From a virus, in IMG/VR virus record IMGVR_UViG_3300010342_001360, positions 1 through 25,576 of that record: a stretch of DNA of 25,576 nt; one strand, 5' to 3'. The notes beneath the pieces were generated by a model that did not search any database, was not told the DNA's origin, and was given only the letters and a program-made list of their open reading frames with translations. Of this stretch, positions 1,751 through 1,901 are shown piece after piece. The translations under genes and the position numbers were made by a program. The stretch's first letter is position 1, and the number at the start of each line of letters is the position of its first letter.

Positions 1751-1901
1751 AAACTGTAGTAATGTTTAGAGTTACTTCGAACTGTCTTGGAAACAGGTGC
1801 CTTAATGGCGTGGGGGTTCGAGCCCCTCTATTCGCTTCGGTGGATATGGCGAAATTGGTAGACGCGCTAAAGAAAAACGCTCTTTACGACTTTCTCAGTT
1901 T
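1751..1901 (+). ncRNA. Y-RNA-like element, copy 2, carrying a circularly permuted tRNA
   Basis: Terminal helix AAACTG/CAGTTT. Interior order is anticodon arm, variable arm, T arm (1812-1828), acceptor 3' strand TATTCGC, UUCG loop, acceptor 5' strand GTGGATA, D arm (1849-1865). Confidence 0.75.

What the first reader, a model, noticed from the sequence alone, without database searches (positions are those of the whole stretch)
1751..1901. Complete circularly permuted tRNA with its acceptor stem sealed by a cUUCGg tetraloop
Seen: order is anticodon arm (CTGT-CTTGGAA-ACAG), variable arm, T arm, acceptor 3' strand TATTCGC (1829-1835), TTCG, acceptor 5' strand GTGGATA (1840-1846), D arm. The molecule opens between the D and anticodon arms into the conserved stem. 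It cannot be aminoacylated unless the loop is cut. YrlA RNAs have a T-acceptor-D permutation as I recall it, but this copy also keeps anticodon and variable arms. It may be a snapshot of Y RNA origin from a tandem tRNA pair (Ser-like 3' half, Leu-like 5' half).
Basis: partly seen in the sequence, partly recalled or inferred. Interest (0 to 1): 0.82.

Follow-up and report, generated by a model that had tools for sequence, protein, structure and literature searches.

The report
Back-to-front sealed tRNA on Ro60 handle
A very large phage encodes, inside its tRNA gene cluster, a small RNA that is a whole tRNA wired back-to-front with its amino-acid end sealed by a tight loop and mounted on a conserved stem shared with sister RNAs beside the phage's Ro60 gene; it is a new variant of the known tRNA-mimicking "Y RNAs", not a new kind of molecule.

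Summary
Window 1751-1901 reads: conserved stem, anticodon-like hairpin, long variable arm, T arm, 7-bp acceptor hairpin closed by UUCG, U8-G9, Leu-type D arm, conserved stem. ARAGORN calls it a tRNA once the two halves are put back in normal order.

In 20 distinct homologues from related phage contigs, all 7 acceptor pairs covary, as do pairs in the T, D and variable arms. The tertiary 15:48 pair is A:U or G:C in all 25 permuted elements parsed.

The closing stem is shared by three sister elements in the window, one lying 275 nt upstream of a TROVE/Ro60 gene. Every reasonably complete contig carrying the stem encodes Ro60. The core motif G(U/A)UACUUC also marks the RNAs beside Ro-like genes of cultured actinophages.

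So this is a YrlA-like Y RNA. That class is already described in print as a circularly permuted tRNA with a closed acceptor.

Three things are new: a retained anticodon-like arm, a different handle, and a discriminator plus CCA plus spacer inside the acceptor loop of about half of the 25 elements (12). The window's UUCG seal is a lineage-specific derived state.

Ro60 binding and function are inferred. The scan has noted similar phage Ro60-handle RNAs on other DNA.

The parts
1675..1749 (+). tRNA-Gln(CUG) ending 1-2 nt before the element. Its 3' processing would create the element's 5' end.
   Evidence: ARAGORN and Rfam tRNA at 58.1 bits. Handle elements abut tRNA genes by 0-6 nt in most loci.
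1751..1756 (+). Terminal helix, 5' strand AAACUG. It pairs with CAGUUU at 1896-1901.
   Evidence: Folding. The helix covaries among family members: AAACUG/CAGUUU, AAGUAG/CUACUU, GUUG/CAAC.
1757..1762 (+). Invariant UAGUAA of the handle. A8-U and G9-C pair with UUUCUC on the 3' arm, with a U.U mismatch and a bulged U.
   Evidence: Invariant in alignments A1 and A2.
1768..1780 (+). AGAG (which pairs with CUCU at 1880-1883) followed by the conserved UUACUUCGA. This contains the G(U/A)UACUUC core of the handle.
   Evidence: Invariant in A1 and A2. The motif is enriched beside Ro-like genes of the actinophages Rabbitrun (5 found, 0.28 expected) and Atuin (7 found, 0.57 expected). The window's 3 matches are exactly its 3 complete elements.
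1782..1796 (+). Anticodon-like hairpin: 4-bp stem CUGU/ACAG and 7-nt loop CUUGGAA (U33, 'anticodon' UGG, A37).
   Evidence: The L016 ortholog keeps it with loop CUUGAAA. Most relatives have a 7-nt loop with U33 and a purine at 37. Statistical support for any single sequence is weak.
1797..1811 (+). Long (class II) variable arm GUGCC/UUAAU/GGCGU. U1811 corresponds to position 48.
   Evidence: Folds alone at -4.6 kcal/mol. The helix is 93% paired with 4 of 5 pairs covarying.
1812..1828 (+). T arm with a canonical T loop UUCGAGC.
   Evidence: 100% paired in homologues, with 4 of 5 pairs covarying.
1829..1846 (+). Acceptor hairpin: UAUUCGC, then UUCG, then GUGGAUA. It has 7 bp including 2 G.U pairs, and a C(UUCG)G tetraloop. 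There is no CCA and no spacer.
   Evidence: z = -3.5. 99.3% paired with 7 of 7 pairs covarying. The variant contigs L028 and L037 carry U.G changed to C-G.
1847..1865 (+). U8-G9 and a Leu-type D arm GCG/AAAUUGGUAGA/CGC, with A14, A15 and G18-G19.
   Evidence: The best matches are tRNA-Leu genes. The D helix is 96.7% paired with 3 of 3 pairs covarying. A15:U48 fits the Levitt pair rule that holds in 25 of 25 elements.
1866..1901 (+). 3' arm of the handle: linker GCUAAAGAAAAACG, then CUCU, UUACGAC, UUUCUC, and the terminal-helix strand CAGUUU.
   Evidence: The pattern CUCU-N6/7-UUUCUC is conserved in all copies.
1..82 (+). Sister element cut by the contig end. It is also permuted (T-AS-D), and its acceptor loop starts A-CCA.
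   Evidence: Model R1 scores 53.6 bits, truncated at the 5' end. Full copies: L028:2788-2955 and others.
2844..2954 (+). Sister element carrying an acceptor-less tRNA (D, anticodon and T arms) on the same handle.
   Evidence: R1 scores 43.3 bits.
9576..9643 (+). Minimal sister element (handle plus a small hairpin), 275 nt upstream of Ro60.
   Evidence: R1 scores 43.2 bits.
9918..11618 (+). Ro60 ortholog (TROVE domain protein, 566 aa), the presumed protein partner.
   Evidence: Pfam TROVE E = 3.6e-7. PDB 9KOP, the Ro60 of Thermus phage phiLo, E = 1.4e-17.

Best explanation
The element is a phage Y RNA of the YrlA kind: a modular small RNA in which a protein-binding stem carries a tRNA-shaped domain.

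Shown here:
- The 5' and 3' ends pair into a conserved bulged handle (UAGUAA ... AGAG-UUACUUCG on one side, CUCU ... UUUCUC on the other).
- The interior is a full tRNA body in the order anticodon-like arm, class II variable arm, T arm, closed 7-bp acceptor hairpin, D arm.
- The secondary pairs, and the tertiary 15:48 pair, are maintained by compensatory change across relatives.

Inferred:
1. It is transcribed with the tRNA array and released by the enzymes that trim the flanking tRNAs. RNase Z or exonucleases acting after tRNA-Gln would give its 5' end.
2. The handle docks the phage's own Ro60 ring, as shown for Y RNAs of bacteria and of Thermus phage phiLo.
3. The L-shaped tRNA mimic then presents an elbow and an anticodon-like loop to a protein that recognises tRNA. 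That protein could be PNPase, as in the known Ro60/Y RNA/PNPase complexes. It could also be a tRNA-processing or modifying enzyme, or a host factor that attacks tRNA. Ro60 would be tethered to it, or it would be sequestered.

The acceptor end of this copy is sealed by a C(UUCG)G tetraloop with no CCA and no leader. So this copy is most likely a non-chargeable mimic that RNase P cuts poorly or not at all.

About half of the permuted relatives examined (12 of 25) keep N73-CCA plus a 3-16-nt A/U-rich spacer in that loop (5-16 nt in the CCA-bearing ones). I read this as a relic of origin from a head-to-tail pair of one tRNA gene. In those copies it may also serve as an RNase P and 3'-trimming site, as seen for M. 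smegmatis YrlA.
For: Anatomy and the tRNA fold:
- establish the arms and the ARAGORN call after un-permuting.
- Covariation is seen in all arms.
- U8 and A14 are invariant. The Levitt pair is A:U in 19 elements and G:C in 6, with no exception.

The handle family:
- There are 63 distinct complete elements in related viral contigs.
- Model R1 finds four copies in the window.

Link to Ro60:
- A TROVE gene lies on the same strand.
- A minimal element lies 112-2132 nt upstream of Ro60 in most Ro60 loci.
- The same holds in LR745206.1, whose Ro60 is only 32% identical.
- TROVE is present in all element-bearing contigs that are at least 38% complete, including 4 of 4 that are at least 90% complete.
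- TROVE is rare among phages: 40 of 50,697 GenBank records.

Link to known Y RNAs:
- The Rfam YrlA model matches the homologue L038_B over its full length (39 bits, E = 2e-9), and matches the element beside the Ro-like gene of Gordonia phage Rabbitrun (31.5 bits).
- Model R1 matches two RNAs next to the Ro-like gene of Arthrobacter phage Atuin (about 49 bits, E about 7e-7).
- The shared G(U/A)UACUUC motif is enriched in both actinophage loci.

Processing context:
- Elements abut tRNA genes by 0-6 nt.
- There is no excess of promoter-like or terminator-like sites.

Published precedent:
- YrlA binds Rsr, carries tRNA modifications, and in M. smegmatis is cut by RNase P and receives CCA (PMC4201824).
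- A crystal structure shows YrlA as a tRNA mimic (10.1101/312249).
- Phage phiLo Ro60 binds two Y-like RNAs encoded upstream of its gene, and binds host PNPase (PMC12135203).
Against: - There is no transcript, end-mapping or binding data for this phage. Ro60 binding, processing and the effector are all inferred.
- This copy lies 8.0 kb from Ro60, beyond the 4 kb used to define YrlA loci.
- The Rfam YrlA model gives no hit on the window element even at E <= 10.
- The published Ro60-contact motif GNCGAAN0-1G is not present as such. This copy has UUCGAAC, and the sister copies have UUCGC and UUCGAU.
- The whole-element folding energy is not better than shuffles.
- The anticodon-like stem has only 4 bp, and in some relatives only 2-3 bp. 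It could instead be a second variable-region hairpin, with the handle standing in for the anticodon stem as in YrlA.
Confidence: 0.75

Rival explanations
1. Processed two-piece RNA. RNase P opens the acceptor loop at the 5' side of G1840 and the upstream piece is trimmed and given CCA. The result would be a nicked but complete, possibly chargeable tRNA body that stays tethered to Ro60 through the handle.
For: - M. smegmatis YrlA, which also has a 7-bp acceptor stem, is cut by RNase P and receives CCA in vivo.
- The acceptor stems are 7 bp in most of the 25 elements parsed (two, in L016 and L090, show 6 of 7 pairs).
- 12 of the 25 carry N73-CCA at exactly positions 73-76 followed by a spacer. 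Only 12.4% of 539 ordinary tRNA genes in the same loci encode CCA (binomial P = 1.5e-5).
Against: - The window copy is the exception. Its loop is only UUCG, closed as a C(UUCG)G tetraloop, with no CCA and no leader, so it is a poor RNase P substrate.
- Its L016 ortholog also lacks CCA.
- CCA may simply be inherited from an ancestral CCA-encoding tRNA pair. The lineages counted are not fully independent.
Confidence: 0.1
2. A genuine permuted tRNA gene, as in the red alga Cyanidioschyzon merolae. The handle would be excised and the ends ligated into a circle, which is then opened at the acceptor to give a working tRNA.
For: The gene order (3' half, short linker, 5' half) and the end-to-end closing stem resemble permuted pre-tRNAs. 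Wang 2018 raised this possibility for YrlA. ARAGORN accepts the un-permuted sequence.
Against: - The same handle carries acceptor-less tRNAs, bare hairpins and a 300-nt cargo, which cannot become tRNAs.
- The handle does not form a bulge-helix-bulge motif, and bacteria and phages lack the splicing endonuclease.
- No RtcB was found in five complete or nearly complete related genomes.
- The identity is incoherent: a Leu-type class II body carries a UGG (Pro) loop, and the ortholog carries UGA.
- The break is at position 26/27, not in the anticodon loop.
- The UUCG loop leaves no leader or trailer.
Confidence: 0.04
3. Non-functional debris: the 3' part of one decayed tRNA gene and the 5' part of the next, left behind by homing-endonuclease traffic in the array.
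For: - GIY-YIG and HNH endonuclease genes are interspersed in the array; one starts 54 nt downstream at 1955.
- Ordinary adjacent tRNAs can look similar in BLAST: the cyanophage hits were simply neighbouring tRNA-Arg and tRNA-Leu genes.
Against: - Compensatory changes occur in every arm across 20 distinct homologues, and the tertiary 15:48 pair covaries without exception.
- The conserved handle flanks the element precisely.
- Position next to tRNA genes is conserved.
- The sequence is identical in 8 contigs (7 further viral contigs besides the window's own), plus 2 contigs with a single pair-preserving change.
Confidence: 0.03

Closest known systems
YrlA (Y RNA-like A; Rfam RF02553), bound by bacterial and mycobacteriophage Ro60/Rsr (Chen 2014, PMC4201824; Wang 2018, 10.1101/312249)
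   Same: - A stem formed by the 5' and 3' ends carries a tRNA-like domain in the order variable region, T arm, closed acceptor-like hairpin, D arm.
- tRNA tertiary nucleotides are kept, including 15:48 covariation.
- A YUAY motif (here UUAC) sits just before the variable region.
- It is encoded on the Ro60 strand and next to tRNA genes.
- It is already described in print as a circularly permuted tRNA.
- The Rfam model matches one homologue (L038_B) at 39 bits, E = 2e-9.
   Different: - There is a separate anticodon-like hairpin with a 7-nt loop between the handle and the variable arm. YrlA has none, because the handle takes the place of the anticodon stem.
- The variable arm and D arm are class II (Leu-type).
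- The handle sequence differs and lacks a canonical GNCGAAN0-1G.
- The T and D stems vary between lineages, whereas they are nearly invariant in YrlA.
- The acceptor stem is 7 bp in most of the 25 elements parsed (two show 6 of 7 pairs) and often carries an encoded N73-CCA plus spacer.
- The window element is not detected by RF02553.
- It lies 8 kb from Ro60.
M. smegmatis YrlA (Chen 2014)
   Same: It has a 7-bp acceptor stem. This gives a precedent for opening the closed acceptor loop by RNase P and then adding CCA, with both halves staying bound to Rsr.
   Different: The window copy has a 4-nt UUCG loop, so cleavage is unlikely. Relatives encode CCA rather than acquiring it.
Deinococcus radiodurans Yrn1
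   Same: It is a Y RNA whose effector domain can be drawn with a T arm and a possible anticodon arm. It is co-transcribed with a tRNA.
   Different: The Yrn1 'anticodon' loop has 6 nt, its D arm is incomplete and it has no variable arm. Here all five arms are present.
Yrl1 and Yrl2 of Thermus phage phiLo with phage Ro60 (NAR 2025, PMC12135203)
   Same: Small RNAs with a stem-bulge-stem are encoded upstream of a phage Ro60 gene. Binding was shown experimentally, and a complex with host PNPase was formed. The window's Ro60 is a homologue of that protein (PDB 9KOP, E = 1.4e-17).
   Different: The paper describes no tRNA-like domain in Yrl1 or Yrl2 (no mention in a search of its text). Their recognition motif is CGAA.
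Circularly permuted tRNA genes of Cyanidioschyzon merolae and some archaea (Soma 2007, as cited)
   Same: The 3' half is encoded before the 5' half, the acceptor is closed by a linker, and the termini are paired.
   Different: Those are true pre-tRNAs cut at a bulge-helix-bulge motif and matured into working tRNAs. Here there is no such motif, the identity is incoherent, and the same handle carries cargo that cannot be a tRNA.
Unannotated RNAs beside the Ro-like genes of Arthrobacter phage Atuin (OK040794.2) and Gordonia phage Rabbitrun (NC_060133.1)
   Same: They share the handle core G(U/A)UACUUC and the 3' ...UUCUC. L182:5784-5925 has the layout hairpin, T arm, 7-bp acceptor hairpin, D arm, and ARAGORN reads it as tRNA-Ile(GAU) once un-permuted.
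   Different: The Ro60 proteins are only about 25% identical. The acceptor loops carry no CCA. I did not find these RNAs annotated in the records.

Membership tests
YrlA-type Y RNA (Chen 2014; Rfam RF02553) | Encoded near a Ro60/TROVE gene on the same strand (within 4 kb in Chen 2014) | tested here: inconclusive
   It is on the same strand as Ro60 (9918-11618) but 8.0 kb upstream. A sister copy with the same handle lies 275 nt upstream. The handle family co-occurs with TROVE in all contigs that are at least 38% complete.
YrlA-type Y RNA (Chen 2014; Rfam RF02553) | tRNA-like domain in the order V, T arm, closed acceptor-like hairpin, D arm, enclosed by a stem formed by the 5' and 3' ends | tested here: met
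YrlA-type Y RNA (Chen 2014; Rfam RF02553) | tRNA tertiary-interaction nucleotides kept, with compensatory G15:C48 or A15:U48 | tested here: met
   U8, A14, G18-G19 and a T loop beginning UUCG (UUCGAGC) are present. The 15:48 pair is A:U (19) or G:C (6) in 25 of 25 elements.
YrlA-type Y RNA (Chen 2014; Rfam RF02553) | GNCGAAN0-1G motif near the 5' end (the Ro60 contact) | tested here: not met
   This copy has UUCGAAC (1776-1782), so an NCGAA core is present but the leading G is not. Sister copies have UUCGC and UUCGAU. The conserved blocks are UAGUAA and AGAGUUACUUCG.
YrlA-type Y RNA (Chen 2014; Rfam RF02553) | Conserved YUAY at the start of the variable region | tested here: met
   UUAC (1772-1775) is invariant in the 15 aligned permuted elements (A1); a few sister elements in A2 and searches have AUAC. 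The feature itself is described.
YrlA-type Y RNA (Chen 2014; Rfam RF02553) | Scores at or above the Rfam gathering threshold (69 bits) with RF02553 | tested here: not met
   No hit on 1751-1901 at E <= 10. The homologue L038_B scores 39 bits and Rabbitrun 31.5 bits, both below threshold.
YrlA-type Y RNA (Chen 2014; Rfam RF02553) | Bound by Ro60/Rsr and stabilised by it | not testable with these tools
   This needs immunoprecipitation or a gel-shift assay.
Permuted pre-tRNA genes (Cyanidioschyzon type) | 3' half encoded upstream of the 5' half, with a linker closing the acceptor | tested here: met
Permuted pre-tRNA genes (Cyanidioschyzon type) | Bulge-helix-bulge motif at the paired termini, for excision and circularisation | tested here: not met
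   By inspection of the folds, the handle consists of a 6-bp terminal helix, a bulged U, short A-U/G-C pairs, asymmetric internal loops and a 4-bp AGAG/CUCU helix. It does not have two 3-nt bulges on opposite strands. No RtcB was found in 5 related genomes.
Permuted pre-tRNA genes (Cyanidioschyzon type) | The product is a tRNA of coherent identity | tested here: not met
   A Leu-type D arm and class II body carry a UGG loop, and the ortholog carries UGA.
Canonical tRNA gene | Detected in native order by ARAGORN or Rfam RF00005 | tested here: not met
   Searches give no call at 1751-1901.

The most novel reading that the evidence does not exclude
These phages use one Ro60-docking handle as a universal mount for whole tRNA bodies, attached at three different points: the acceptor end, position 26/27, or the variable loop.

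The permuted forms would be made from tRNA-tRNA dimers. Where N73-CCA plus a spacer is kept, RNase P and 3' trimming would open them into nicked, CCA-ended and possibly chargeable tRNAs that remain tied to Ro60.

Sealed copies, such as the one in this window, would be uncleavable decoys. Their anticodon-like loop and elbow would sequester, or deliver to Ro60 and PNPase, a host factor that targets tRNA, such as an anticodon nuclease or another tRNA-directed defence. That would make the Ro60 particle part of the phage's protection of its translation apparatus.
Probability: 0.15. Interest if true: 0.85.

Novelty: new variant of a known kind. Interest (0 to 1): 0.55.

Why it matters
Y RNAs that mimic tRNA are known, but what the tRNA-shaped domain is for, and where it came from, remain open questions. 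This phage family offers a natural series that bears on both.

- The same Ro60-type handle carries bare hairpins, acceptor-less tRNAs, and complete tRNAs permuted at two different points.
- The permuted ones still show the discriminator, CCA and intergenic spacer inside the acceptor loop. That is what the published 'dimeric tRNA transcript' origin model predicts, and it is a direct sequence trace of that model.
- The window's copy is the most tRNA-complete and most tightly sealed member seen here. It gives a ready contrast (UUCG loop versus CCA-plus-spacer loop) for testing whether RNase P processing and a free CCA end matter.
- A related layout occurs in cultured actinophages (Atuin, Rabbitrun), so the questions can be taken to the bench.

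Tried and rejected
1. BLAST of the element against GenBank phages gave cyanophage hits spanning T arm, junction and D arm. These proved to be ordinary adjacent tRNA-Arg/tRNA-Leu or tRNA-Thr/tRNA-Leu genes with non-complementary acceptor strands, so they are not homologues.

2. A viral-contig pattern requiring the UUCG loop together with the Leu-type D arm found nothing.

Only a handful were real.

4. A tRNA split by the downstream GIY-YIG gene: no matching 3' half lies downstream, and the 5' half pairs with the strand immediately upstream instead.

5. Whole-element free energy is not distinguishable from shuffles. The support comes from covariation, not from energy.

6. The promoter and terminator scan showed no excess.

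7. RtcB was absent from five related genomes. The T4 Rnl1 search was uninformative because its control was silent.

8. 'Ser-like 3' half': not resolved, since Thr, Ser and Leu score alike.

9. Vibrio phage phiKT1024 (Ro60 28% identical) shows no handle motif within 6 kb of its TROVE gene.

10. The review PMC10870794 is not held in the library, so I could not check whether it mentions CCA in acceptor loops.
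Full report
**Context**

The window is a 25.6-kb fragment of an uncultured viral contig, with a CheckV completeness of about 6%. All its genes are on the + strand.
- Positions 85-8848 form a tRNA array: 12 ARAGORN tRNAs and further tRNA-like Rfam matches.
- GIY-YIG and HNH homing-endonuclease genes are interspersed in the array.
- Related contigs reach 174-405 kb, so this is a very large phage.

**The observation**

- handle, 5' arm: AAACUG-UAGUAA-UGUUU-AGAG-UUACUUCGA, 1751-1780
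- hairpin CUGU/CUUGGAA/ACAG, 1782-1796
- long variable arm, 1797-1811
- T arm GGGGG/UUCGAGC/CCCUC, 1812-1828
- acceptor 3' strand UAUUCGC, 1829-1835
- UUCG, 1836-1839
- acceptor 5' strand GUGGAUA, 1840-1846
- U8-G9
- D arm GCG/AAAUUGGUAGA/CGC, 1849-1865
- handle, 3' arm: GCUAAAGAAAAACG-CUCU-UUACGAC-UUUCUC-AGUUU, 1866-1901

tRNA finders do not call the element in its native order. When the 5' half is placed in front of the 3' half, ARAGORN reports a class II tRNA of 82-86 nt with anticodon UGG, for most junction choices.

The acceptor hairpin folds on its own with z = -3.5. Seven pairs between two fixed heptamers are expected about once in a thousand. The free energy of the whole element is unremarkable (z = -0.69), so energy alone would not have shown it.

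**Homologues and covariation**

A scan of viral contigs with the handle's 5' motif gave 44 loci. A search with the Ro60 protein gave 19 more. Scripts recovered 63 distinct complete elements bounded by the same handle.

Fifteen elements have the permuted T-acceptor-D order and were aligned (A1). On that MAFFT alignment:
- 92.3% of cells pair, against 80.2% in shuffles (0 of 500 reach it) and at most 58% when partners are slid.
- The acceptor helix is 97% paired, with 5 of 7 pairs changed on both sides.

A covariance model built from A1 found further members: L055, L061, a second L038 copy and two L015 copies. On the model-fitted alignment of 20 distinct sequences:
- 95.6% of cells pair overall.
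- The acceptor helix is 99.3% paired, with all 7 pairs covarying.
- The T arm is 100% paired (4 of 5 pairs covary), the D arm 96.7% (3 of 3) and the variable arm 93% (4 of 5).

That alignment leans toward the model, but the unfitted MAFFT result agrees with it.

The closest ortholog is L016:3182-3338, which sits after the same tRNA-Gln(CUG). It differs from the window copy by compensatory changes in every arm. That criterion is not met.

**Tertiary fold**

In all 25 permuted elements parsed, U8 and A14 are invariant. The Levitt pair 15:48 is A:U in 19 and G:C in 6, with no exception. This is the same compensatory pattern that Chen et al. reported for YrlA.

The type of D arm tracks the variable region:
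- Leu-type 3-bp D stems co-occur with a long variable arm (window, L016, L043 group, L055, L015).
- 4-bp class I D stems co-occur with a 4-7-nt linker (L036, L154, L041, L061, L038).

This is what one expects if each cargo descends from a real tRNA of that class.

**Is the first hairpin an anticodon arm?**

In favour:
- The loop has 7 nt with U at position 2 and a purine at position 6 in most lineages. Examples are CUUGGAA, CUUGAAA, AUUAUAA, AUUCCAA, CUUCCAU, AUUCAAG, CUGUCAC and UUUAGGA.
- Its distance to the T stem equals a normal variable loop or variable arm.
- ARAGORN accepts the geometry.

Against:
- The stems have 2-5 bp.
- For the window's region, 9% of shuffles give an equally good hairpin.

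The alternative is that the handle stands in for the anticodon stem, as it does in YrlA, and that this hairpin sits in the variable region. Sequence alone cannot exclude that. A second group of relatives has the order T, acceptor, D, then a full 5-bp anticodon arm with loops of the form CU-NNN-AA. Their handle emerges where a variable arm would (L032, L010, L005, L007, L038, L090). This shows that whole-tRNA cargo is a recurring theme.

**What the handle is**

The window holds four copies:
- 1-82 (cut by the contig end)
- 1751-1901
- 2844-2954 (an acceptor-less tRNA)
- 9576-9643 (a bare hairpin)

These were seen and score with model R1.

The bare copy lies 275 nt upstream of a 566-aa TROVE protein (Pfam E = 3.6e-7). 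That protein matches PDB 9KOP, the Ro60 of Thermus phage phiLo, at E = 1.4e-17.

The link to Ro60 is consistent across loci:
- In most Ro60 loci a minimal element lies 112-2132 nt upstream on the same strand.
- The same is true of the 635-kb uncultured phage LR745206.1, whose Ro60 is only 32% identical.
- Of 26 element-bearing contigs searched, all 12 that are at least 38% complete encode TROVE, including 4 of 4 that are at least 90% complete. Those without it are fragments of 38 kb or less, apart from three of 52-60 kb.
- TROVE is rare in phages generally: 40 of 50,697 GenBank records.

**Link to published Y RNAs**

Chen 2014 describes YrlA as follows:
- It has a stem closed by the 5' and 3' ends, followed by V, T, an acceptor-like hairpin and D.
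- It carries Psi55 and dihydrouridine.
- It is encoded within 4 kb of Ro60 on the same strand.
- It is present in 254 bacteria and 22 phages.
- The M. smegmatis form, with a 7-bp acceptor, is cut by RNase P and receives CCA.

[quoted passage not shown] The same paper discusses an origin from dimeric tRNA transcripts.

The Rfam YrlA model (RF02553, gathering score 69 bits) behaves as follows:
- It does not hit the window element at E <= 10.
- It matches the homologue L038_B over its full length at 39 bits, E = 2e-9.
- It matches the RNA beside the Ro-like gene of Gordonia phage Rabbitrun at 31.5 bits.

In the other direction, my model matches two RNAs directly downstream of the Ro-like gene of Arthrobacter phage Atuin at about 49 bits. 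One of these has the layout hairpin, T arm, 7-bp acceptor hairpin, D arm, and reads as tRNA-Ile(GAU) when un-permuted.

The handle core G(U/A)UACUUC occurs 5 and 7 times in those two actinophage loci, against 0.28 and 0.57 expected. Its UUAC fits the YUAY that Chen et al. place at the start of the variable region.

So the element works like YrlA and is distantly related to it. [quoted passage not shown] I therefore call it a YrlA-like Y RNA, not a member of RF02553.

**The acceptor loop**

The C(UUCG)G seal occurs only in the window's own near-identical lineage. That lineage comprises 8 contigs (7 further viral contigs besides the window's own) with the identical sequence, plus 2 in which U.G has become C-G.

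In 12 of the 25 permuted elements, the seven-base acceptor 3' strand is followed by a discriminator base and exactly CCA. After that comes a 5-16-nt A/U-rich spacer, then the acceptor 5' strand.

Ordinary tRNA genes in the same loci encode CCA in only 67 of 539 cases. Most read N73-C-A-A or N73-C-U-A. The enrichment has binomial P = 1.5e-5, though the lineages are not fully independent.

This is what a head-to-tail pair of one CCA-encoding tRNA gene would leave behind. It supports the dimeric-tRNA origin model more directly than anything I found in the papers read. Its retention suggests a function. CCA favours RNase P recognition and, by established knowledge, blocks RNase Z. Hence my secondary hypothesis that those copies are opened into two-piece RNAs, as in M. 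smegmatis.

The window copy has no CCA, no leader and a thermostable tetraloop. It is best read as a derived form that is not processed and cannot be charged.

**Biogenesis (inferred)**

Elements abut tRNA genes by 0-6 nt on one or both sides in most loci. The window element starts 1-2 nt after tRNA-Gln(CUG). No excess of promoter-like or terminator-like sites is seen. Release by the tRNA-processing enzymes is therefore likely. D. radiodurans Yrn2, tRNA-Asp and Yrn1 share one precursor in the same way.

**Function (inferred)**

Three published results guide the reading:
- Bacterial Y RNAs tether Rsr to PNPase.
- YrlA's conserved elbow is thought to bind a tRNA-recognising protein.
- Phage phiLo Ro60 binds its two upstream Y-like RNAs and host PNPase, and damps PNPase activity.

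By analogy, the handle docks the phage Ro60, and the tRNA-shaped domain engages PNPase or a tRNA-binding factor. The loop triplets differ between phages (UGG, UGA, UCC, UAU, GUC, UCA, UAG and others). This leaves room for a role in conflicts over tRNA, but nothing here tests that. No RtcB ligase is encoded by five related genomes.

**Origin of the halves**

The 5' half is clearly Leu-type. The 3' half cannot be assigned. The 176-nt tRNA-shaped gene at 1427-1602 has nearly the same acceptor stem (GCGGAUA/UAUCUGC) and D arm in normal order. It is probably a paralogue.

**Verdict**

- The element is a new variant of a known kind.
- The scan's notebook shows that similar phage Ro60-handle RNAs with permuted tRNA cargo were noted before on other DNA. 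I did not test those.

Noticed in passing
window 1-82; full copies L028:2788-2955, L030:1417-1584: A second permuted element on the same handle lies between tRNA-Cys and tRNA-Thr. Its acceptor loop reads A-CCA plus an 8-nt spacer. Its T loop (UGAAACC) and D loop (no GG) are degenerate, so the elbow contact is probably lost. Its positional orthologs in L043, L044 and L055 keep canonical loops.
   Followed up: partly
window 1427-1602: A 176-nt tRNA-shaped gene (Rfam tRNA 34.3 bits, with an insert of about 100 nt). Its acceptor stem (GCGGAUA/UAUCUGC) and D arm are nearly identical to those of the permuted element, but in normal order. It is probably a paralogue.
   Followed up: no
window 2720-2844: A 125-nt RNA with a tRNA-like acceptor and T arm. 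It matches the Rfam tmRNA model end to end but below threshold (29.3 bits against 47). It ends where the acceptor-less handle element begins.
   Followed up: no
window 5390-5472: A tRNA-like sequence with a 7-bp acceptor (CGUGGGU/ACUCACG), a T arm and a CUUUCAA loop. ARAGORN misses it, and Rfam tRNA matches only part of it (31.3 bits, model positions 10-63).
   Followed up: no
64 related loci (L004-L066 and others): Ordinary tRNA genes of these phages mostly read N73-C-A-A or N73-C-U-A after the acceptor (289 of 539). Only 12% encode CCA. The first C of CCA is usually templated, the rest is not.
   Followed up: partly
L032:4598-4738, L010:7518-7664 and 11416-11563, L005:5102-5244, L007:981-1121(-), L038:3562-3704(-), L090:407-549(-): A second permutation class on the same handle: T arm, closed acceptor, D arm, then a full 5-bp anticodon arm with loops of the form CU-NNN-AA (CAU, GCA, UAA, UCC). 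The handle emerges where a variable arm would.
   Followed up: partly
L016:8454-8757; L022:6068-6369(-), which is L054:7568-7869: The same handle encloses a conserved cargo of 302-304 nt and unknown nature, about 2.1 kb upstream of Ro60 in L054.
   Followed up: no
L182:5632-6216 (Arthrobacter phage Atuin OK040794.2); L181:3440-3930 (Gordonia phage Rabbitrun NC_060133.1): Cultured actinophages carry tandem arrays of four unannotated Y-RNA-like elements flanking their Ro-like genes inside tRNA clusters. The elements share G(U/A)UACUUC, and several have a T arm followed by an acceptor hairpin, two of them (one in each phage) followed by a D arm. These are usable as laboratory models.
   Followed up: partly
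L179:11454-11524 (LR745206.1, a 635-kb uncultured phage): A minimal handle element lies about 540 nt upstream of a Ro60 that is only 32% identical to the window's. A second, more divergent copy follows it.
   Followed up: partly
window 14167-25477: Gene content downstream of Ro60:
- a T4 gp30.3-like protein
- dCMP deaminase
- an NAD salvage set: NAD synthase (17251-18126), an isochorismatase/nicotinamidase-like protein (18484-19092) and NAPRTase (22975-24147)
- a radical SAM protein
- PTH2 peptidyl-tRNA hydrolase (25061-25477)
- another GIY-YIG endonuclease
   Followed up: no
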